From IMG/VR virus record IMGVR_UViG_3300009128_001633, positions 31,857 to 95,856 of that record: DNA of 64,000 nucleotides; one strand, written 5' to 3'. Each line of letters opens with the position of its first letter. Within the stretch, counting starts at the first letter, position 1. Shown here in pieces: positions 39,728-50,244 of this stretch. Position numbers and translations under genes: made by a program. The DNA is from a virus. Below the pieces are notes generated by a model that was given only the letters and a program-made list of their open reading frames with translations, made no database searches and was not told where the DNA came from.

Positions 39728-40540
39728 CTACCTCTTACCAGTATTCTTCTTGGTCTTAGCGTCGGCCTCTTTTTTTAATCTATCCATTTCTTCCTTCAAC
39801 ATTGCATTCTGCTCTGACAAAACTATCGCCCTAACAACATAGAAAAAATTTGATTGTTCTAACGCTCCTTCTTTGAATGGTAATGACTTTGAATTATCAA
39901 TGTAATTTATTAAATTGGTTAACTTTATTGATCTTGAAGTTAACAATCCCAGAGGACATCTTGTTACGAAATCATTGTTTCTATTACTGAACCTAAATTT
40001 GAATTTCAATCTTTTTTTAACTCCACACGCACTACAAGTATCATCATTATTGTTTTCTTGACAAGATGGACATATCCAAGTTAAAGCACCATCACAATTA
40101 CGAGATTTAAACATTTTATGATCAACGCAATATTCACAATCCCATTGATATGCTTTATCAGCTCTACTCAGCCAATCAGACCATCTTGCTATTAACCTCA
40201 ATTCACTTGCTAAATCATCATCAACTTCAGATAGTTCCATTATTTTTTCAGCAAGTTCCTGTTGATAATGTGGGGAAATAGCACTAAAATTCTCCACATT
40301 AAATGGGATAACTTCACCATTTTCAAAGGCAAAGTTATCCCATCCGACTAGACCATACATGAGAACCCTTAGTATGAAATTACCAGAAAAACGAGGATGA
40401 AGTTCCTCACAAGAACGATATCCCAACACCGTTAACGGCCTGAGAATAAACGAAGTGGAAGACCCATTATTTCTGTCATTCTTACATATATAAGAAAAGA
40501 CAGTTTTTGGGTCTAGTCTTAGCATTACCGAATTTTCCAT
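39728..40540 (-). CDS. Tail assembly chaperone GT-like (G-domain copy + Cys-rich domain)
   Basis: N-half homologous to 40561-40917; CEYC, CPSC, CSAC; GALEQS motif. Confidence 0.7.
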   Translation of the reverse strand: MENSVMLRLDPKTVFSYICKNDRNNGSSTSFILRPLTVLGYRSCEELHPRFSGNFILRVLMYGLVGWDNFAFENGEVIPFNVENFSAISPHYQQELAEKIMELSEVDDDLASELRLIARWSDWLSRADKAYQWDCEYCVDHKMFKSRNCDGALTWICPSCQENNNDDTCSACGVKKRLKFKFRFSNRNNDFVTRCPLGLLTSRSIKLTNLINYIDNSKSLPFKEGALEQSNFFYVVRAIVLSEQNAMLKEEMDRLKKEADAKTKKNTGKR

Positions 40541-41226: not shown

Positions 41227-43266
41227 TTAAATATAAGATTGTCCATTAGTTAAAACAATTCTCATATCGGGAATATCCTCCGTATCATCAAACAAAGCAT
41301 TAAACGGAAAATCAGTAGCTATTAATTCCTCACCACCAACAACAGGAGTTGACCCAGAATACTTAATGTTCGGCAACCTAATCTGAATACTATAAAATGT
41401 AGAACTTCCACCAACATATTCATCAGAAGTGACAGTAACAACTAAATCTCCAGCAGTACCGTTTACAAACATTCTATAGACATCAAGATCATCAAATTCA
41501 AGATTCATTGAACCATCAGTCGTTCTCCTTTGTGGAACTAACGCTGCTCTCTGCCTGTCACCCAACTCATATTTATCACCATACAGATTATTATTAATTG
41601 TTGCAGTAAGACCCATAATGGATTGAGCAACAGCACCAGCCCCATCTCCCTTATTCAGTGTAACATCACCCTGATATCCAGTTAAGATATCTTCTGTTTG
41701 ATATGTTGCACTAGCATTCTCATCCTTAAATGTAGTGAATGACCAAGTATCATTTGCAACTAATGTAACATTCTCAGGAAACATTATATCAAATCCAGTA
41801 TCAGTGTCATTTTCATCTAAAATATTATACCAAGTATTGTAAGTTATAAGTGTTTCAGTGCTCCAATTCGCATTATCACTGGAACCCTTGAAACCCGCTG
41901 TTCCATCGCAGGCTCCACCAGTAGTAATATCAACATAGAACGTAGCACTATCTCCAGCATCAGTCCCAATGTAATTACCCCTAAACAATGGCATGATAGT
42001 TGTTGAAATTAAAAGAGTTAAATCCGTATCAGAAGTTGTAGAAATGGTCGTACTATTAAGATCAGTCATACCAGTAGACAGTGTATCTATATCAGCTCCT
42101 GCCTTCCTAGCTATCGTAAAATACGTAGACTCATATTCCATAAACTCTAATAACCCTTTAACATAACTAGTTTCCCAATAATAACCATCATGATCATAAT
42201 AATTGCGTTCAAGAGAAAAATGATACACTGTATCACCACCATGAGCAAAATAGAACATTTCTCTTGTTCCGTCTAAGTCAAGTTCCAAAGTTGGTGTAGC
42301 AGAAGAACCTGCATATCTAACGGAACATAACGGAGCAGCCCATCCTGTATTAGAACCAACAACAGCAGGATCACCAATTGTACCTCCACCTTTAAACATA
42401 ACATTAGCTGTTCCGGTAATGATCTCTCCGGGATTAATTGTGAATGAAAGAGAGTTGAGACGTCCACCATAATAATTAAACGCAGCAACATCCCTTCCAA
42501 CCTCAAGTGTGAGCCCCTCAGGAAGATCTTGATGAGCATCCAAAGTGTGTTCATAAATACCATACCTATAATTAACTGGAAAAAACACGTATTTATTTCC
42601 ACTTGTATCAGCACCAATTGCCATATTTTCAAACGCTACTTCAAGATTAACAACTCCAGCAGCAGTTTTCGCATAAGCAGTTGTACTATAATCAGAAGAA
42701 CCAAGAGTTTGAGCAGCACTACCTTTGCTCGCAAGAGCTCTTGCAAAATATCCTCCATTAGAAGTATCAGTACCATCTCCCCATGGAGCATAACAACTAT
42801 GATTAGTCGCACTATTGATTGAATTAATTACAGTTTGCACAGTTGTTCCGGGTGCAAACTCAACTTCCCAATTGTCACCTGCTGTAGTTCCAACAGATCT
42901 AATCATCGCACTTGTTAATGTGATAACTCTATCTGTATCACTACCATCATACACTATGACAAAGGCCACATCCTTCCTTTTTGTTCGCTTTTTGCCCAAA
43001 GCATGTTTCAATAAAGTTCCAAATCCCTCGGGAGCAAATTCGAAGTTAACATCACCTCCAGCAGTTTCTGTTCCTATCCTCTGTTTATGAATAGCTCTAT
43101 CTGCCCTAACAGCAGCACTTACTAGATTAGTATAATCACTAACAATACCTTCACTAGTAAATTCGACAAATTTGTTAGGAGGTGAAGCAGGATAACCCCA
43201 CTTGCTCTCTTCTTTAAAACCGATCTGGCCTTTACTTCCAACTGCCGGACCTACAGTTCTTACCAT
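41227..43266 (-). CDS. Major tail tube protein with two large insertions
   Basis: IGFKEESKWG...GGDVNFE...LLKHALG; LTLEVGR...LNSLSFT; INNNL...RTTDGSM...IRLPNIKY. Confidence 0.85.
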   Translation of the reverse strand: MVRTVGPAVGSKGQIGFKEESKWGYPASPPNKFVEFTSEGIVSDYTNLVSAAVRADRAIHKQRIGTETAGGDVNFEFAPEGFGTLLKHALGKKRTKRKDVAFVIVYDGSDTDRVITLTSAMIRSVGTTAGDNWEVEFAPGTTVQTVINSINSATNHSCYAPWGDGTDTSNGGYFARALASKGSAAQTLGSSDYSTTAYAKTAAGVVNLEVAFENMAIGADTSGNKYVFFPVNYRYGIYEHTLDAHQDLPEGLTLEVGRDVAAFNYYGGRLNSLSFTINPGEIITGTANVMFKGGGTIGDPAVVGSNTGWAAPLCSVRYAGSSATPTLELDLDGTREMFYFAHGGDTVYHFSLERNYYDHDGYYWETSYVKGLLEFMEYESTYFTIARKAGADIDTLSTGMTDLNSTTISTTSDTDLTLLISTTIMPLFRGNYIGTDAGDSATFYVDITTGGACDGTAGFKGSSDNANWSTETLITYNTWYNILDENDTDTGFDIMFPENVTLVANDTWSFTTFKDENASATYQTEDILTGYQGDVTLNKGDGAGAVAQSIMGLTATINNNLYGDKYELGDRQRAALVPQRRTTDGSMNLEFDDLDVYRMFVNGTAGDLVVTVTSDEYVGGSSTFYSIQIRLPNIKYSGSTPVVGGEELIATDFPFNALFDDTEDIPDMRIVLTNGQSYI

Positions 43267-43301
43267 GATTGATACCTCCGTAAATTATTATTTTTAAAAT
43301 C

Positions 43302-43326
43302 TTTTGTGGCTCACTAAATTGTTTAA
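43302..43326. repeat. Arm of 25-nt long-range inverted repeat (partner 46666-46690)
   Basis: TTTTGTGGCTCACTAAATTGTTTAA matches the reverse complement of 46666-46690 at 24/25. Confidence 0.9.
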
Positions 43327-43787
43327 GAAATAGATGTTACAATATCCTGATAGGGAGCTAACACTATCAGTCTGGCCGAAGCCATTAGACCACCAGACCT
43401 TATTCTGGGTGTATAAGAACATGACCTAACAATCGCTCTGGTGGATGTTAACCAACTATTTAACGAAGCATTCTCCATTATATGCCTCATTATTTTGTAT
43501 GCATGTCGCATAACCAGATTTTTTCCTAAATCTGGATTAGCAACACCGTGATAATACCACAACTCTCCAACTATATCTAACTCATATCTGACAGTATTAC
43601 TACCAATTGTCCTCTTATCATTAAATACAGCAGAACAAGAAATAGATAAAGAAGGAGTAACTGGAATTAAATGCACATCTTCCTTGAAAATTTCCTTCAG
43701 TTCTAATGATTCTTGACTTCCCTCAAGAGTTTCGTATGTGTTTAATATGAAATTATCAATTAAATTATCTACATCTATTGCAGTCAT
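43323..43787 (-). CDS. Tail terminator/completion protein (putative)
   Basis: Size and position just upstream of the tube; beta-rich pattern. Confidence 0.6.
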   Translation of the reverse strand: MTAIDVDNLIDNFILNTYETLEGSQESLELKEIFKEDVHLIPVTPSLSISCSAVFNDKRTIGSNTVRYELDIVGELWYYHGVANPDLGKNLVMRHAYKIMRHIMENASLNSWLTSTRAIVRSCSYTPRIRSGGLMASARLIVLAPYQDIVTSIS

Positions 43788-45418
43788 TATATTTTACTCA
43801 AAATTTTGTGTTGAACAATATCAGCAACCTTATCTTGCAACCCAGATCTATTAAAAAGTTCATGGCTAACTATTGCTCTTATGTCTTTTATTAAATTATC
43901 CGATACACCAATTGCTCTTAGATTTGAATTTAATTGTCTATTTATATAAAAAACATGCCTTATTGACATATCACTATCTTTAACACGTCTGTGACCGTAA
44001 AACTCCATTGGCCTTCCAGACCTTATTTCACCATGCTCAACATCATTAACAACTTTCTTCAATCCAGTAGGACCAAAATATTTATCATATTCAGCACGAG
44101 AGGGAGCAGAACTTTCCAAATTGTTAAGAATGTTAATAAAGCCCTTAAATGAACCTGATATCCATGATAGATTTGTATATAACATATTAAGTATTAATCC
44201 ACCACTATAACTTGAACCAATGCTAATTCCTCTTCTTTTTGAACCACTAACTGATGTTCTGCCAATTGCAGCCTCAGAAAACACTTTTCCGACTAATTTT
44301 TCTATAATATCTAATAATAATTCAATTTTAAAACTTAAATCAGAAATAATTGACTCATTTACATTCTCAATACCAAAATTAACCAAACTATTATTGTTTG
44401 TAAAATCAAGAAAACTATTCGATAAAAATTCAAGCTCTATGGCATATGATCTCAACTCCTTTTCAGACCTATCAACTACTCTCTCATATTCATACAATAA
44501 ATCTCTATATGAATATCCAGAAACATTCTCATAATCACCGCTGAACATATCTTTTAAATGTCTCTGCATACCAACATTGTGCTTTGATCTATCAGCTGAA
44601 AGGTTATTCAATGTTGCATCTAGTCTACTTTTAGAATGTGTTAGTATCCTATTATACTCAACAGCCAAACCATATCTTTGATTAAAGCTACCTTCCAACT
44701 TCATAAATTCTTCTTCCAAAAAATCATTAACTGTTGTTCTAACCTGTTGTAAAATTGATTTATTGAAAATGACATTAGAAACATGTTGAAGATCCTGCTT
44801 TTTTAATAAGGTTTTTCTACTAAACTCCTTGAGAAAACGATCGGCATCTGTAGCATCAAATATGACTTCCCAATTCTTTTTAGCTTGTGTTATTTTAGGA
44901 GTAGCAATACCCATATGTTCTCTTAATACAGGAAATGCTTCTTTTGTTTCCAAAATTCTAGCAGGATTATCAGTATATGTATAGTTATCAATCAAATTCA
45001 TTATCCCTTCAACAGCTTCTTTTCCCTTACCACCTTTGGCATATAAGGATAACAATTGAACTTGAGCTCTCTCCAATTTAACATTTGTTTTAAGATCGCC
45101 AATAGCTGCTTCTATCAACTCCATATCAGCTCTTTCTCTAGCTTCAGAATATGACGTTTGCTTACTTGCATCAAGTTCACCAAAAACATCTCTACTGTCC
45201 TCATACAACAATCTTTCACCTGCTAATAACTCTTCTGTTGACAACTGCTCAGTTATCGTTTTTTCCTCACCTACCATCCTCCTAGTTATTACTCTCTTTT
45301 TCCACTCACTAGCTTGAGAAGCAGCATCTGCAACTAACTCTTCATCAGTTAATTGATCAGGATCCTGATCCAACTCATCAAGAAAATCTTCTAATTCTTC
45401 TTCATCATAAGTAGCCAT
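43787..45418 (-). CDS. Unknown 543-aa neck-region protein
   Basis: Coupled to neighbours; acidic N-terminus; helical. Confidence 0.6.
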   Translation of the reverse strand: MATYDEEELEDFLDELDQDPDQLTDEELVADAASQASEWKKRVITRRMVGEEKTITEQLSTEELLAGERLLYEDSRDVFGELDASKQTSYSEARERADMELIEAAIGDLKTNVKLERAQVQLLSLYAKGGKGKEAVEGIMNLIDNYTYTDNPARILETKEAFPVLREHMGIATPKITQAKKNWEVIFDATDADRFLKEFSRKTLLKKQDLQHVSNVIFNKSILQQVRTTVNDFLEEEFMKLEGSFNQRYGLAVEYNRILTHSKSRLDATLNNLSADRSKHNVGMQRHLKDMFSGDYENVSGYSYRDLLYEYERVVDRSEKELRSYAIELEFLSNSFLDFTNNNSLVNFGIENVNESIISDLSFKIELLLDIIEKLVGKVFSEAAIGRTSVSGSKRRGISIGSSYSGGLILNMLYTNLSWISGSFKGFINILNNLESSAPSRAEYDKYFGPTGLKKVVNDVEHGEIRSGRPMEFYGHRRVKDSDMSIRHVFYINRQLNSNLRAIGVSDNLIKDIRAIVSHELFNRSGLQDKVADIVQHKILSKI

Positions 45419-46233
45419 TATGTTGAACCAATTGCCTCTTCTTCATTATAATCATAATCATACTGTTCATTAATAGTTTCGATTTCACCCTTCATGTTTT
45501 CAACTCCAGCCGCTTCTTTAATACCTATTTGTTCTTGCAAGAGAGGTTCATGAGATACAAATCTTGCATATCTAGAATACTTAAATTTAGCTTTACCTGG
45601 AATACTCTCAAGGTATAATTTGACAAAATTTTTACCTTGATTATACCATCTTCTAACCAATGTTGGAACTTGGTCAGTGTTTAAGTTTGAAAACACAGAA
45701 GTGAAAATAACACTTGCACCAATATATTGACAAGCTCTCTTTAATAAAGATGGAGGTGAAACAAAAGGAACATATTGATCATCTATAAACTCTAATGCCA
45801 TACCATTAATTATTTCGTTAGCATCTTCTAAAAAGCCAATACCATCTTCCTCAGATATATTTGAATCAGTACGAAACTTAAACTGGTCTCCAGTAATAGG
45901 AGTTCCAGCCCACTGAGCAGCAGCTATAGTTATAATACCAGAAGTTGACGTGAAACTAGAGCTTATAGTTCCAGTACCATCAGGCGTACTAGTACCTTCT
46001 CCTCTATATAGAGTAAAAGCTGTACTAGAGGAAAATGTTATATGCCAAAGCTCACTTCCAGCATAACTATCAACTATAGAAGAAATACCTTTAAGAATAC
46101 CACTTCCGGTATTTGAACTATAAGCCTTCGGTATTGTATATGAACCAGAAAATTTAACTTTATGCTGATTATTTCCAGCAACTGAGAGAACTCTCAGCAA
46201 TCTTTTGGTATCATCAAGTTTACAGTAAGCCAT
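45418..46233 (-). CDS. Head-tail adaptor (Mu gp36-like) with S/T-rich insertion
   Basis: MAYCKLDD N-terminus; ANEIING...PSLLKRAC...RWYNQG. Confidence 0.7.
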   Translation of the reverse strand: MAYCKLDDTKRLLRVLSVAGNNQHKVKFSGSYTIPKAYSSNTGSGILKGISSIVDSYAGSELWHITFSSSTAFTLYRGEGTSTPDGTGTISSSFTSTSGIITIAAAQWAGTPITGDQFKFRTDSNISEEDGIGFLEDANEIINGMALEFIDDQYVPFVSPPSLLKRACQYIGASVIFTSVFSNLNTDQVPTLVRRWYNQGKNFVKLYLESIPGKAKFKYSRYARFVSHEPLLQEQIGIKEAAGVENMKGEIETINEQYDYDYNEEEAIGST

Positions 46234-46234
46234 A

Positions 46235-46642
46235 TTATATAGTCCTTAGAAATTGAATTATTTCTTTTAATTTATTTTTATCCTTTATTGTCTTAACAAT
46301 TGGCTTTTTCATTCCAAGGGTAGAAGCTAAAGTAATCAGCTCGCTTCTACCCTTGTCCTGAAGATCATCATCAAATCCTCCAGAAACAAATACAGGAGTA
46401 CGCTTAATATCACTTTTGCTCTTATTTATCTCAATTTCGTACTCTTCATACTCACCTTCATCATCCAACCTAACAAACTTGCAAATTCTCAATTCCTTTT
46501 TAGAGTCGGTATGATATTGTTTGGTTTTATTTCTAGCTGCATCCATTAAATAATCTGAAGGATTTTTCTCTATATCTCCAACGTTATACATTTTACCCAT
46601 ATGGGTTAGTCCAGGAAATAAAACTTTAACGGCCTTTGGCAT
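46235..46642 (-). CDS. Head-associated hypothetical protein
   Basis: Follows capsid; C-terminal small helical (HeH-like) region; contains IKRTPV. Confidence 0.55.
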   Translation of the reverse strand: MPKAVKVLFPGLTHMGKMYNVGDIEKNPSDYLMDAARNKTKQYHTDSKKELRICKFVRLDDEGEYEEYEIEINKSKSDIKRTPVFVSGGFDDDLQDKGRSELITLASTLGMKKPIVKTIKDKNKLKEIIQFLRTI

Positions 46643-46665
46643 TTTTCGCCCTCCTTTTTTATTAT

Positions 46666-46690
46666 TTAAACAATTTAATGAGCCACAAAA
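46666..46690. repeat. Arm of 25-nt long-range inverted repeat (partner 43302-43326)
   Basis: TTAAACAATTTAATGAGCCACAAAA. Confidence 0.9.
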
Positions 46691-46717
46691 AAATTTTATA
46701 TCACCTGCATACTATCA

Positions 46718-47956
46718 TTATGCGATAGTTGCAGCTATGAAACCACGTTTCCTATAAAGAACAGGAAGAGCATTAATACCAGCAATAATTTCAATCTGTT
46801 TAGGATCTTTATTAAGAAAAATAGTTTCAGCAAATTTTCCAGGAGCGGGATTAGTGAGACTACCCTGTCCATAAACAGCGTCTACACTAATAACCTCACC
46901 TTTTGGACCAGATCCCGGAGGAAATTCAAGTTCCATAAGAAATACATTATCGGGAATGTATGTTTTATAACATCTCAACATACTCTGGGCTGGATATGTT
47001 CCTGTAACTGTAGTTCCTGTAAAATCAATTGTATCACCAGATATACTGGCAATAGTCATATTCTCCTCCGCACTTTCATCAGCAGCAGAGAATTGGCAAA
47101 CATCGGCAGCAGCAAATCCCTTAGCATCGTCCATAACTATGGTAGTTACTGATCCTGCGGCTTGAGCAGCCTGAGAATAAGTAATCAAGTTATATCCTGC
47201 ATCATAAACTTCATATTCATAATTGCCAATATAGGTACTGAAAATTTGTTGGAGTATCTTACGACTCATAAGACCAACATTGCCAGCATTAAACACTCGA
47301 TCAACAAGAGCTAGTACCCTGGCATTCCTAAACAAATACTGTTCACACATTGTATTAAACCAGAATTTCTTGACTTTACCACCAGACCCACGAGCAAGAC
47401 GTACCCAAGTCTGAATATCATTGATTGGGTCTGAAGTCGCAGCTGTACTCCACAACGGAGAAGCAGTAGGCCTCTGTCTTCCAGGAATATTATATGAAAT
47501 TGTAAACTGAACCTTATTATCGTTGATAGCTAAGGTATTAGCAACCGGAGGTTGCCACCTCATCCATTCAATTCTTGTTTCTAACCTCGAATCAAGATCA
47601 ATCATAATATCGGCAATAAGCTCCGCAGCAGTTGATCTTTGCTCCCACGTCCCAAGTTTTCTCAATGTGGTCACATCAGACTCACCAAGGATAACTTTTT
47701 CACGAAAATGAGCAGGCTCAAAAGACGCTTGCCCGACACCCCTACGATGGATAACCGGAGATTCGGCTCCTCGTGCGACTGCTTGAGTCATTCCACCAAG
47801 TGGTCTTTTTATATCCCATTCAACCTTTGGTCCAGGCTGAGTGACTAACGGCATAATATCCTGACCACGATAAGTTTCTGTCTGAGGAGGAATGTCATCA
47901 ATCACCTTCATAAGATACCTCGGGGTCAAGAGTGTGCTTTCTACTAATGCATCCAT
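46718..47956 (-). CDS. Major capsid protein (HK97 fold, lambda gpE-like)
   Basis: VARGAESP...FEPAHFREK...RIEWMRWQ...WST..SDPINDI...ALPVL. Confidence 0.9.
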   Translation of the reverse strand: MDALVESTLLTPRYLMKVIDDIPPQTETYRGQDIMPLVTQPGPKVEWDIKRPLGGMTQAVARGAESPVIHRRGVGQASFEPAHFREKVILGESDVTTLRKLGTWEQRSTAAELIADIMIDLDSRLETRIEWMRWQPPVANTLAINDNKVQFTISYNIPGRQRPTASPLWSTAATSDPINDIQTWVRLARGSGGKVKKFWFNTMCEQYLFRNARVLALVDRVFNAGNVGLMSRKILQQIFSTYIGNYEYEVYDAGYNLITYSQAAQAAGSVTTIVMDDAKGFAAADVCQFSAADESAEENMTIASISGDTIDFTGTTVTGTYPAQSMLRCYKTYIPDNVFLMELEFPPGSGPKGEVISVDAVYGQGSLTNPAPGKFAETIFLNKDPKQIEIIAGINALPVLYRKRGFIAATIA

Positions 47957-48005
47957 ATTTATAACCTCCTAAATTGTTTTATATAGTTAATTGTTCACTA
48001 AACTG

Positions 48006-48446
48006 CTATGCAGACGGACTATCAACGAAAGTCAAATGCTGCATTTCCTCAACCTGATCATCAGTAAGGGCAGTTGAAGATGAGTAGTTATATTTAATTT
48101 TACTCCAATCAAAAGTCCCTTTAATATATGCTTTAACAGGCTGATCACCCCAAGAAGCATCAAGGATTGTTTCTGCTAATACAACAGCGTCACCAAGGAA
48201 CTGAGTAGGAGTACCGTTAACACCATTATTTCCAGCTTCAGTATCAACGACATTATAAGTCCCGTCAGCCAAATCAGTATCCTTAGTCAACAAAACACCC
48301 TTAGGAATCTTAACCACTCCTGACCCAAATCCGGCAGCAGCATATCTCGCAGTTGAATCAAGCGTAACGCTTATTAACTGAAAGTTACCGCTTCGAAGGA
48401 TCTCAGAATCGAATTCCCCTGTTTGAAAAGTTGTTCCAGGTTTCAT
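48006..48446 (-). CDS. Head decoration protein
   Basis: ISVTLDS...IPKGVLL...VVLAE; directly before capsid. Confidence 0.7.
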   Translation of the reverse strand: MKPGTTFQTGEFDSEILRSGNFQLISVTLDSTARYAAAGFGSGVVKIPKGVLLTKDTDLADGTYNVVDTEAGNNGVNGTPTQFLGDAVVLAETILDASWGDQPVKAYIKGTFDWSKIKYNYSSSTALTDDQVEEMQHLTFVDSPSA

Positions 48447-49056: not shown

Positions 49057-49686
49057 CTACTTCTTTTCTACTAAACGAAGACCCTTTTTCCTGAAAGACC
49101 TACCAATAGCTTCGTTTTCCATTTTATTTTGCTCTTCTTCTGTAAAAGAAACACCGTCGCCTATATTGGTTTCCTCATTATAGTTAGCACGCTGAGAAGT
49201 AGGAATGGCTTCAAGAATCTTAAGAACAGCTTCGCGAATTGTAAGTTCAAGATCAACACTCTTCTCTTCTTCGCCTTCACCAATTGTTTCAGTAAATTTT
49301 ATAATCCTATCCTCTTCCTGATCACTAAGCATAATCTCTTTGGCAATACTAACAACAGCAGGATGATGATGTTTATCAGTAAGAAGCTTATCACAAATCC
49401 GATCAATCTCAACAACACGAGCTCTTTCATCACTCGCAATCTGTTTACTATGAAGTGTTTTTGTCTTCTCTTCATATTTTTCAATTTTATCAGACATTTC
49501 CTTCATTTCTTTTTTCTGTTCAAGGATGAAATCTTGCAACTCTTTATTGTTATCATCTGAAGATTCATCAAGCTTTTTCTGAAGCTCATCATTCTTTTTC
49601 TCAAGCTCCTCGTTCATTGCTTGCAAATCTTCAAGAGTCACATCTTCATCCTTAACAGCAGGATCACGTTTAATATCTTTTTTCAT
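49057..49686 (-). CDS. Nested in-frame scaffolding protein
   Basis: Internal AAGGAGGTAAATAGT-ATG at 49686; acidic coiled coil, as with Mu gpZ inside gpI. Confidence 0.7.
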   Translation of the reverse strand: MKKDIKRDPAVKDEDVTLEDLQAMNEELEKKNDELQKKLDESSDDNNKELQDFILEQKKEMKEMSDKIEKYEEKTKTLHSKQIASDERARVVEIDRICDKLLTDKHHHPAVVSIAKEIMLSDQEEDRIIKFTETIGEGEEEKSVDLELTIREAVLKILEAIPTSQRANYNEETNIGDGVSFTEEEQNKMENEAIGRSFRKKGLRLVEKK

Positions 49687-50244
49687 ACTATTTACCTCCT
49701 TGGTTTGTAATCTATAAACAGAAACGTCGGAATCATCACTGTTTAATGAAAATTCTATTTTCTTCAGTTTAGAAATAAATGGTCTATTAGTTAAAGCTCC
49801 ACCCATTATGGCCGGACCAAATTCTTCACCACTTTCTGGATCCTCATAGTTATCACTGTATTCAATGCTAAAATATCCATAACGTTTCTTTTCAATGCTA
49901 TCTTTACCCTCTTCAGTAAGTTCAGTTGTCCCTATGAGTACGCCTTCTTCAATCTTAAGTTCTTTTAACCAACCACTTGCAGCTTCAGCTTTGTGATTCC
50001 AATCAAAACTAATCTCTCTACCAACTATCTCTTCGTTAAAATTAGTGACCATACTTTCAAGCATTTCTTCAGTAATTTCAAGATCACCATAAATCTTATG
50101 CTTGAAATCCCCTACCCTAAGCATTTCAATATTAACAAAATTTTCAGCTAATTCAGATACAATTTCCGAATCTAAAGAGACTATGCTGAAAAACTTGCCT
50201 TTATCAAAATGCACATCAGATAATTTCTTTCTTTTTTTGCCCAT
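49057..50244 (-). CDS. Mu gpI-like prohead protease/scaffold
   Basis: FDWNH..AASGW...YGYFSIEY...GGALTNRPF; C-terminal coiled coil. Confidence 0.9.
   Translation of the reverse strand: MGKKRKKLSDVHFDKGKFFSIVSLDSEIVSELAENFVNIEMLRVGDFKHKIYGDLEITEEMLESMVTNFNEEIVGREISFDWNHKAEAASGWLKELKIEEGVLIGTTELTEEGKDSIEKKRYGYFSIEYSDNYEDPESGEEFGPAIMGGALTNRPFISKLKKIEFSLNSDDSDVSVYRLQTKEVNSMKKDIKRDPAVKDEDVTLEDLQAMNEELEKKNDELQKKLDESSDDNNKELQDFILEQKKEMKEMSDKIEKYEEKTKTLHSKQIASDERARVVEIDRICDKLLTDKHHHPAVVSIAKEIMLSDQEEDRIIKFTETIGEGEEEKSVDLELTIREAVLKILEAIPTSQRANYNEETNIGDGVSFTEEEQNKMENEAIGRSFRKKGLRLVEKK

What the first reader, a model, noticed from the sequence alone, without database searches (positions are those of the whole stretch)
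43302..46690. 25-bp long-range RNA duplex joining the capsid 3' end to the tail-tube leader, looping out four neck genes
Seen: on the mRNA strand, UUUUGUGGCUCAUUAAAUUGUUUAA (46690-46666, starting 27 nt after the capsid stop) is complementary to UUAAACAAUUUAGUGAGCCACAAAA (43326-43302, ending about 22 nt before the tube SD). The only non-Watson-Crick position is G-U on this strand (A-C on the other), which favours RNA-level selection. A further UAAAAU/AUUUUA pairing extends it past a bulge. Two partial copies of the second arm (CAGUUUAGUGA, AAACAAUUUAG) sit in the capsid's own leader. Inference: pairing across 3.3 kb places the stop of one high-copy gene beside the RBS of the other. This could allow ribosome hand-off, or RNase III excision of the low-copy neck cistrons, as a stoichiometry control.
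Basis: partly seen in the sequence, partly recalled or inferred. Interest (0 to 1): 0.8.

Follow-up and report, generated by a model that had tools for sequence, protein, structure and literature searches.

The report
Kilobase-spanning mRNA helix bracketing phage neck genes
In this uncultured marine tailed phage and nine relatives, a roughly 27-base-pair RNA helix joins the spacer after the capsid gene to the spacer after the tail-terminator gene, 3.0-3.5 kb away. It has been kept through many matching changes on both sides, so it is a real, apparently undescribed RNA element that most likely controls how the four looped-out neck genes are processed or translated.

Summary
On the mRNA (minus) strand, 46692-46666 pairs with 43326-43300, giving 27 bp (25 Watson-Crick, 2 G-U). 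This is the best antiparallel complement in the 64-kb window: score 60 against 47 for the next best.

Ten distinct related phages (capsid 63-87% identical) carry a helix at the same two spacers, 3.03-3.48 kb apart.
- The arm sequences differ between phages but stay complementary within each phage.
- 96% of cells are paired across 27 columns, against about 46% just outside.
- 20 of the 27 columns show double compensatory changes.
- Each arm A pairs best with its own arm B in 10 of 10 cases (-35 to -48 kcal/mol, against a mean of -16 for cross pairs).
- Transition mismatches are G-U on the sense strand in 25 of 27 cells, which points to selection on the mRNA.

The invariant anchor of arm B is the stop codon of the tail-terminator gene, not the tube ribosome-binding site. 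Two phages have an extra ORF between arm B and the tube gene. The partial copies in the capsid leader are not conserved.

I found no invertase, transposase or inverted form.

My best reading is an RNase III-type processing stalk, like the rRNA operon stems, that sets the neck-gene block apart from the capsid and tube messages. This mechanism is untested.

The scan has noted similar gene-bracketing helices on other DNA (for example e1-2980266).

The parts
46666..46692 (-). Arm A (5' arm) of the long-range helix, in the capsid-g135 spacer.
   Evidence: Homologous arms in 9 other phages. An arm-A-like core is also present in 5 of 6 further distinct contigs that hold only this spacer.
43300..43326 (-). 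Arm B (3' arm) of the helix. Its first bases overlap the TAA stop of the tail-terminator gene (43325-43323). It ends 20 nt before the tube GGAGG.
   Evidence: Co-folding the two spacers gives the arm-arm helix as the minimum-energy structure in all 10 phages.
46718..47956 (-). Major capsid protein gene, upstream of arm A.
   Evidence: Pfam Phage_cap_E 1.1e-25 and PHROG 29 major head protein 3.8e-36.
46235..46642 (-). g135, first gene inside the loop. Function unknown. Conserved in relatives.
   Evidence: No family or PDB match.
45418..46233 (-). g271, second gene in the loop. Predicted helical bundle with an inserted beta domain. Possibly a head-tail adaptor, not established.
   Evidence: fold search inconclusive. 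Its start lies 1 nt after the g135 stop.
43787..45418 (-). g543, third gene in the loop. Fast-evolving and of unknown function. Its start overlaps the g271 stop by 1 nt.
   Evidence: (24-31% identity among relatives). No transposase or recombinase signature.
43323..43787 (-). g154, the tail terminator and last gene in the loop. Its stop codon lies inside arm B.
   Evidence: AlphaFold model with pLDDT 77.5. Foldseek matches neck/terminator proteins of Pa193, lambda gpU, T5 p142 and SPP1 gp17 at E 4e-6 to 3e-3.
41227..43266 (-). Tail tube protein gene (679 aa), downstream of arm B.
   Evidence: Pfam Phage_tube_2 1.3e-21 and PHROG 290.

Best explanation
The two arms form a helix of about 27 bp (25-35 bp) within the late polycistronic mRNA. 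The helix closes a 3.0-3.5-kb loop holding exactly the four tightly coupled genes from g135 to the tail terminator. This places the capsid 3' end and the next cistron's leader (the tube in 8 of 10 phages) at the base of the helix.

Shown here: the helix is under selection at the level of a single sense-strand nucleic acid, as seen from compensatory changes, sharp helix boundaries and the G-U excess.

Inferred: its most likely job is to serve as a double-strand-specific (host RNase III-type) processing stalk, as the stems flanking 16S and 23S rRNA do. One enzyme binding event would cut both borders of the neck block. This would separate the capsid, neck and tube messages so that their stability and translation can differ, which suits very different copy numbers in the virion.

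Ribosomes terminating at the terminator gene's stop codon, which lies inside arm B, would transiently melt the loop-side end of the helix. Helix formation or cleavage could therefore depend on translation of the block. This step is also inferred.
For: 1. Ten distinct phages have the pair at the same two spacers, 3030-3483 nt apart.
2. In the joint alignment 259 of 270 cells are paired over 27 columns, against about 46% in the flanking columns. Twenty of the 27 columns hold two or more different Watson-Crick pair types.
3. Own-pair duplexes are -35.4 to -47.7 kcal/mol. Cross-phage pairs average -16.1 (SD 6.3, best -29.2). Every arm A prefers its own arm B.
4. Transition mismatches are G-U on the sense strand in 17 of 19 cases and in 25 of 27 helix cells. 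This gives p = 3.6e-4 to 2.8e-6 at 50:50, and still 0.017 to 0.001 at the 65:35 ratio allowed by the composition skew at 4-fold sites.
5. The pair is the top hit in unbiased self-scans of the window and of 5 of 6 loci of 17-18 kb.
6. The arms are not tied up in local structure. Local folds are no better than shuffles, and co-folding gains -21 to -37 kcal/mol with the arm-arm helix in the minimum-energy structure.
7. No terminator-like site lies in either spacer, and the genes in the loop abut or overlap by 1 nt. Both fit a single transcript and a single translational unit.
8. A helix of 25-35 bp is the size of RNase III substrates. B. subtilis RNase III cuts long-range intramolecular mRNA duplexes of 10-36 bp (PMC11780869). 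The rRNA stems pair sequences 1.7 kb apart (Young & Steitz 1978, cited in PMC8708148).
9. More distant relatives (capsid about 35% identical) have a long local hairpin, often 14-20 bp and without a clear U-tract, at the same place after the capsid gene. An RNA processing or stabilising element at this position therefore seems to be ancestral.
Against: There is no RNA data. No RNA run holds the phage, so neither co-transcription of the arms, nor the helix in vivo, nor any cleavage has been observed.

No RNase III gene is encoded by the phage or by a complete 140-kb relative, so a host enzyme must be assumed, and the hosts are unknown.

After a central cut the capsid 3' end would be left paired only in trans. 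That gives no obvious stabilising hairpin, unlike T7 RNase III sites (my own knowledge).

The conserved core (UUGCGAC and its variants, with an invariant G-C and C-G) is not explained by what is known of RNase III. It could reflect another protein or a nucleation seed.

One relative (L029) has a short capsid spacer without the core, so the element can apparently be lost.

The constant closeness of arm A to the g135 Shine-Dalgarno sequence and of arm B to the terminator stop fits translational models equally well.
Confidence: 0.45

Rival explanations
1. The RNA helix acts without cleavage, through translation. By closing the loop it places the terminator-gene stop next to the g135 start, allowing closed-loop re-initiation within the neck block. 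Alternatively it occludes the standby region just 5' of the g135 Shine-Dalgarno sequence and so throttles the whole coupled block. It also places the capsid stop next to the following cistron's start.
For: The geometry is constant across the 10 phages: capsid stop to arm A 13-31 nt, arm A to the g135 ATG about 7-26 nt, the terminator stop inside or within 1 nt of arm B, and arm B to the next ATG 23-45 nt. The four genes in the loop abut or overlap by 1 nt, so initiation at g135 can set the output of the whole block. A terminating ribosome must unwind the loop-side end of the helix. For precedents of long-range pairing that controls translation, see icaR (PMC3868564) and the MS2/Qbeta long-distance interactions (my own knowledge).
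Against: The arms never cover a Shine-Dalgarno sequence or a start codon, apart from a marginal case in L006, so icaR-style masking is not met. In L013 and L014 an extra ORF, weakly endonuclease VII/HNH-like, separates arm B from the tube gene by about 450 nt. Capsid-to-tube adjacency is therefore dispensable. A helix of 25-35 bp is longer than tethering would need. There is no precedent for ribosome transfer across a helix in bacteria.
Confidence: 0.25
2. The RNA helix is a decay barrier or stabiliser rather than a cleavage site. It would block 5'-end-dependent RNase E/J scanning or 3' exonucleases, and so define segments of different half-life in the late transcript.
For: Outgroup phages carry a long local hairpin at the same position after the capsid gene, which is a classic stabiliser arrangement. 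The hbs 5'/3'-UTR interaction modulates RNase Y access (PMC5737220).
Against: A local hairpin would do this more simply. This model gives no reason why the partner should sit 3 kb away at exactly the other border of the neck block in all ten phages.
Confidence: 0.12
3. It is a DNA-level inverted repeat. Candidates are sites of an invertible segment (Gin/Hin type), terminal inverted repeats of a mobile cassette, paired binding sites of a DNA-looping protein, or repeats kept alike by gene conversion. Pairing of the coding strand as single-stranded DNA is a further variant.
For: Inverted repeats of 25-35 bp flanking about 3 kb resemble invertible segments and transposon ends. Repeats homogenised by gene conversion would also 'covary'. 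G-T is tolerated in DNA hairpins as well.
Against: No serine recombinase is found in this record or in four relatives, one of them complete. None of the four enclosed proteins has a transposase or recombinase domain. All 10 phages have the block in the same orientation, collinear with the operon. Contigs from four metagenome runs cross both arms collinearly with no strand-switch joints (low depth, so this is weak). The position is syntenic, not mobile. The arm sequences diverge freely, which does not suit a protein-recognition site. The similarity stops sharply at 27 bp. The mismatches are strand-asymmetric (25 G-U against 2 A-C), which double-stranded DNA processes do not predict beyond the roughly 1.3-1.8-fold composition skew.
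Confidence: 0.05

Closest known systems
RNase III processing stems flanking 16S and 23S rRNA in bacterial rrn operons (Young & Steitz 1978; Bram et al. 1980; reviewed in PMC8708148)
   Same: Two complementary segments kilobases apart in one transcript form a helix of about two to three turns that encloses a functional unit. In both cases the helix sits in spacers at exactly the borders of that unit.
   Different: Here the enclosed RNA is a translated four-cistron mRNA segment of a phage late operon, not a structural RNA. Cleavage has not been shown, and there is no known tethering system for co-transcriptional pairing (the Nus/boxA complex plays that part for rrn).
Long-range intramolecular RNase III target duplexes in B. 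subtilis mRNAs (PMC11780869)
   Same: These are mRNA duplexes of 10-36 bp formed by distant segments of one mRNA. They are cut on both strands and are thought to affect gene expression.
   Different: The reported spans reach 505 nt, in a search limited to 1 kb. Here the span is 3.0-3.5 kb across four genes, is conserved with covariation in a phage clade, and is located precisely at gene-block borders.
icaR mRNA 5'-UTR/3'-UTR pairing in S. aureus (PMC3868564) and the hbs 5'/3'-UTR interaction in B. subtilis (PMC5737220)
   Same: An mRNA is closed by pairing of untranslated segments at its two ends, with effects on RNase access and, for icaR, on translation and RNase III cleavage.
   Different: Those are monocistronic, with short helices (a UCCCCUG motif; 14 bp), and the icaR pairing masks the Shine-Dalgarno sequence. 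Here the helix is internal to a polycistronic RNA, is 25-35 bp long, and leaves the Shine-Dalgarno sequences free.
Invertible DNA segments of phages Mu (G), P1 (C) and Salmonella Hin (my own knowledge)
   Same: Inverted repeats of roughly 26-34 bp flank a segment of 1-4 kb in a phage structural region.
   Different: There is no invertase gene, no second orientation, no conserved recombination-site sequence, the block is collinear with its operon, and the mismatch pattern is strand-asymmetric. Membership was tested and not met.

Membership tests
Long-range RNase III processing stalk (rRNA-operon type / B. subtilis mRNA type) | Two distant complementary segments able to form about 20 bp or more of near-continuous dsRNA | tested here: met
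   The helix is 25-35 bp in all 10 phages, at -35 to -48 kcal/mol.
Long-range RNase III processing stalk (rRNA-operon type / B. subtilis mRNA type) | The pairing is maintained by evolution (compensatory changes) | tested here: met
   Twenty of 27 columns hold two or more Watson-Crick pair types, 96% of cells are paired, and own-versus-cross duplex preference holds in 10 of 10.
Long-range RNase III processing stalk (rRNA-operon type / B. subtilis mRNA type) | Both arms lie on one transcript | tested here: inconclusive
   All genes are co-oriented and abutting, and no terminator-like site lies in the spacers. There is no RNA data.
Long-range RNase III processing stalk (rRNA-operon type / B. subtilis mRNA type) | RNase III-dependent staggered cuts (2-nt 3' overhang) in both arms | not testable with these tools
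   This needs end mapping or an in vitro cleavage assay.
Site-specific invertible segment (Gin/Hin/Cin) | A cognate serine invertase is encoded by the element or phage | tested here: not met
   PF00239 is absent from the window's record and from 4 relatives, including a complete 140-kb genome.
Site-specific invertible segment (Gin/Hin/Cin) | Both orientations occur in populations or relatives | tested here: not met
   The orientation is the same in 10 of 10 phages. There are no strand-switch joints in contigs of 4 runs (weak).
Transposon / IS with terminal inverted repeats | A transposase lies inside and the insertion site varies | tested here: not met
   There are no transposase domains. The enclosed genes are structural (terminator fold) and the position is syntenic in all relatives.
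SD-masking 5'/3'-UTR pairing (icaR type) | The pairing covers the Shine-Dalgarno sequence or start codon | tested here: not met
   Arm A ends upstream of the g135 Shine-Dalgarno sequence. Arm B ends 23-45 nt before the next ATG.
Any Rfam family | Match to a curated covariance model | tested here: not met
   No match at E <= 1 in 43000-48200.

The most novel reading that the evidence does not exclude
The helix may be a topological device for translation rather than a cleavage site. It would fold the late mRNA so that the neck block becomes a closed translational loop whose own terminating ribosomes open the helix next to the block's start site. Ribosomes leaving the very heavily translated capsid gene would then be delivered across the base of the helix to the next cistron. 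This would be a bacterial analogue of mRNA circularisation or ribosome shunting, and it may recur in phage structural operons, since the scan has noted other gene-bracketing helices.
Probability: 0.2. Interest if true: 0.9.

Novelty: new variant of a known kind. Interest (0 to 1): 0.72.

Why it matters
How tailed phages make hundreds of capsid and tube subunits but only 6-12 copies of each neck protein from one late transcript is mostly explained by ribosome-binding-site strength and local hairpins.

A conserved helix spanning 3 kb and four translated genes would be a new layer of control. It shows that mRNA pairing at the kilobase scale can be maintained by selection in a dsDNA phage. [quoted passage not shown]

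It also gives a clean test system. The arms are short and intergenic, and natural variants supply ready-made compensatory pairs. With similar brackets noted elsewhere in this scan, it may be one case of a general but unrecognised way of delimiting gene blocks within operons.

Tried and rejected
- **RNA evidence.** No RNA holder was listed for the stretch, so expression and RNA ends could not be examined.
- **Metagenome contigs.** Contigs of 4 marine metagenome runs laid on 42800-47200 showed only collinear pieces across both arms and no joints. Depth was low and only contigs were available, so rare inverted forms cannot be excluded.
- **Cultured relatives.** Nucleotide search of GenBank phages found no match. 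The capsid protein search gave only hits at 29% identity or less. No cultured relative is therefore available for experiments.
- **Genome contigs.** The scan with the capsid profile gave only one remote hit, in an actinobacterial MAG, so host assignment was not possible.
- **Capsid leader as third partner.** Rejected, because there is no lineage-specific pairing in relatives.
- **Other conserved long-range pairs.** None recur in the same loci. A capsid-coding/tube-coding complement in L006 (score 49) is not shared by the others.
- **Promoter reading of arm A.** A TTG..-N17-..-10-like arrangement fits only the window, not the relatives, and promoter-like hits occur at shuffle frequency. Rejected.
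- **Archaeal bulge-helix-bulge reading.** Rejected, because the helix has no 3-nt bulges.
- **Sequence searches on the enclosed proteins.** PDB profile searches with g135, g271 and g154 gave nothing significant. The fold search for g271 was inconclusive. The ESM Atlas search for g543 was uninformative.
- **Distant phages.** L054 (tube 36% identical) and L015-L023 (capsid about 35% identical) lack the long-range pair.
- **Formal pair-counting tool.** I did not run it, because two arms 3 kb apart cannot be given as one reference. The counts were made in scripts instead.
Full report
**The observation**

All genes between 41227 and 50244 lie on the minus strand, which is therefore the mRNA strand. 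On that strand 46690-46666 and 43326-43302 are complementary at 24 of 25 positions, and the remaining position is a U-G pair.

The pattern occurs only at these two places in the 95.9-kb viral record and never in shuffles. It is the best inverted repeat of the window. In an exhaustive scan of the mRNA strand that tolerates G-U pairs, it scores 60 and the next best pair scores 47. In the register shared with relatives the helix is 27 bp, 46692-46666 with 43326-43300, made of 25 Watson-Crick and 2 G-U pairs.

**The genes**

- 46718-47956 is the major capsid protein (Phage_cap_E, PHROG 29).
- 41227-43266 is a 679-aa tail tube protein (Phage_tube_2).
- 49057-50244 is a Mu-like protease/scaffold.

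Four genes lie between the arms: g135, g271, g543 and g154. They abut or overlap by 1 nt. g154 folds like tail terminators such as lambda gpU, T5 p142 and SPP1 gp17. g271 is a helical bundle with a beta insertion and its fold search was inconclusive. g135 and g543 have no recognisable family. 'Neck genes' is therefore shown for the terminator and is plausible but unproven for the other three.

**Relatives**

Scans of IMG/VR and JGI metagenomes with the capsid and tube proteins gave nine further distinct phages with the same gene order: L003, L004, L005, L006, L007, L008, L013, L014 and L046. Their capsids are 63-87% identical to the window's.

In every one, the best complement of the spacer after the capsid gene lies 3.03-3.48 kb downstream, at the end of the terminator gene. 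In all-against-all self-scans of loci of 17-18 kb this pair is the top hit in 5 of 6. In the sixth it is split by a 1-nt bulge, which the ungapped score cannot bridge. No other pair recurs.

**Covariation**

The arms differ greatly between phages but stay complementary within each.

- In a joint alignment of all arm A and reverse-complemented arm B sequences, 27 consecutive columns are paired in 259 of 270 cells. The columns just outside are paired in about 46% of cells.
- Twenty of the 27 columns hold at least two different Watson-Crick pair types. Two pairs are invariant (G-C and C-G, inside a core of UUGCGAC and its variants).
- Own-pair duplex energies are -35.4 to -47.7 kcal/mol. Cross-phage pairs average -16.1 (best -29.2). 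Each arm A prefers its own arm B in all ten rows and columns.
- The core variant seen in the window recurs in the distant L014, while the window's closest relatives have the common core. This suggests independent compensatory events.

**RNA or DNA?**

Transition mismatches between the arms are G-U on the sense strand in 17 of 19 cases under strand-neutral alignment scoring. In the 27 helix columns they are G-U in 25 of 27 cells. The two A-C cells lie where L007's helix has ended and where L013 has a bulge.

A strand-biased mutation spectrum could produce some excess. At 4-fold degenerate sites (T x G)/(C x A) is 1.8, which allows at most roughly 57-65% G-U. The observed excess remains significant against that (p = 0.017 to 0.001).

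The other evidence on the DNA-level readings is as follows:

- The similarity stops sharply at the ends of the helix.
- No serine recombinase is encoded in this record or in four relatives, one of them a complete 140-kb genome.
- No transposase or recombinase domain is present in the enclosed proteins.
- The block has the same orientation in all ten phages.
- Metagenome contigs cross both arms collinearly. This check is weak, because the contigs are of low depth.

Taken together, these make inversion, transposition, protein-site and gene-conversion readings unlikely. Pairing of the coding strand as single-stranded DNA cannot be formally excluded from sequence alone.

**Anatomy**

The geometry is constant across the ten phages:

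| Interval | Distance |
|---|---|
| Capsid stop to arm A | 13-31 nt |
| Arm A to the g135 ATG | about 7-26 nt (arm A ends just before the Shine-Dalgarno sequence) |
| Terminator-gene stop to arm B | stop inside arm B in 8 phages, 1 nt before it in 2 |
| Arm B to the next ATG | 23-45 nt |

In L013 and L014 the next gene is not the tube gene but an extra ORF of 121-139 aa, weakly endonuclease VII-like. The invariant partner of arm B is therefore the terminator stop, not the tube leader.

The spacers have no more local structure than shuffled sequence. Co-folding them yields the arm-arm helix with a gain of -21 to -37 kcal/mol. By my estimate this is well above the entropic cost of closing a 3-kb loop. 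No terminator-like site lies in either spacer, and Rfam has no match.

**Limits of the clade**

Phages with about 35% capsid identity (L015-L023) have a long local hairpin immediately after the capsid gene and no distant partner. L054 also lacks the pair.

Of six further distinct contigs that hold only the capsid spacer, five carry an arm-A-like core. L029 has a shortened spacer without the core, which is a possible loss.

**Mechanism**

What is shown is a selected sense-strand helix that closes a loop holding exactly the neck block. What it does is inferred. I favour an RNase III-type processing stalk, with confidence of about 0.45.

- The helix has the length of RNase III substrates.
- It sits in spacers at the two borders of a unit, as the rRNA stems do (PMC8708148).
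- An RNA element at the capsid 3' end seems ancestral in this group.

A single double-strand cut would release the capsid, neck and tube segments for separate fates.

G-U pairs cluster in the loop-side half of the helix: 20 cells in columns 25-38 against 5 in columns 12-24. The outer half holds the conserved core. That asymmetry would suit a protein reading one half of the helix, but this is speculation.

The rivals are a translational role without cleavage (0.25), a decay barrier (0.12) and a DNA-level repeat (0.05). The translational role could be closed-loop re-initiation, standby-site occlusion at g135, or hand-off at the helix base.

The capsid-leader 'partial copies' are real in the window but not conserved.

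**Comparison and novelty**

The closest known systems are:

- the rRNA processing stems;
- the B. subtilis long-range RNase III duplexes;
- more loosely, the icaR (PMC3868564) and hbs (PMC5737220) UTR-UTR interactions.

I found no report of a conserved multi-kilobase helix bracketing a gene block in a dsDNA phage late operon, though the library is incomplete. No cultured relative exists.

Earlier unchecked notes of this scan describe similar gene-bracketing helices in other genomes. I treat them as leads, not support. They suggest the phenomenon may be general. I class this finding as a new variant of a known kind.

Noticed in passing
window 40301-40345 (minus strand); L008 15336-15380; L006 15808-15860: A hairpin of about 18 bp (GGATGGGATAAC...GTTATCCCATTT) is conserved in sequence inside the second chaperone-like ORF downstream of the tube gene in three phages. 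It could be a frameshift or pausing element, or it could reflect a conserved peptide repeat.
   Followed up: no
L015 6603-6646; L016 9267-9315; L019 9270-9324; L021 9152-9185; L022 9269-9299: Distant relatives (capsid about 35% identical) carry a long local hairpin, often 14-20 bp and mostly without a U-tract, directly after the capsid gene. This is the position where the studied clade has arm A of the long-range helix.
   Followed up: partly
L013 12434-12853; L014 12572-12937: An extra ORF of 121-139 aa lies between arm B and the tube gene in these two phages only. The two copies share an N-terminal 44 residues at 50% identity. The L013 copy weakly matches endonuclease VII (PHROG 3281, E 5e-4), so it may be a homing-endonuclease-like insertion.
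   Followed up: partly
L029 8925-8978: A relative with 79% capsid identity has a spacer of only about 50 nt after the capsid gene and lacks the arm A core, so it appears to have lost or truncated the helix. The contig ends before the arm B position.
   Followed up: no
L046 2012-2865: In this contig the capsid gene matches only residues 1-20 and 147-412 of the window's capsid, an apparent internal deletion of about 125 residues. Both helix arms are nevertheless intact.
   Followed up: no
window 46705-46733 (minus strand): A local stem-loop of about 11 bp spans the capsid stop codon in the minimum-energy fold of the window's spacer. No matching local stem appeared in the folds of L006 and L008.
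   Followed up: partly
L006 9142-9175 and 14680-14713: A 34-nt antiparallel complement (score 49) links the 3' coding end of the capsid gene to the 3' coding part of the tube gene. It is seen only in L006, so it is probably chance.
   Followed up: partly
window 41227-47956, genes of the late operon: There is a strong T over A excess (about 1.9-fold) at 4-fold degenerate sites on the sense strand, and only 16% G+C at those sites. Relatives range up to about 47% G+C at such sites, which suggests quite different hosts for phages that share the helix.
   Followed up: partly
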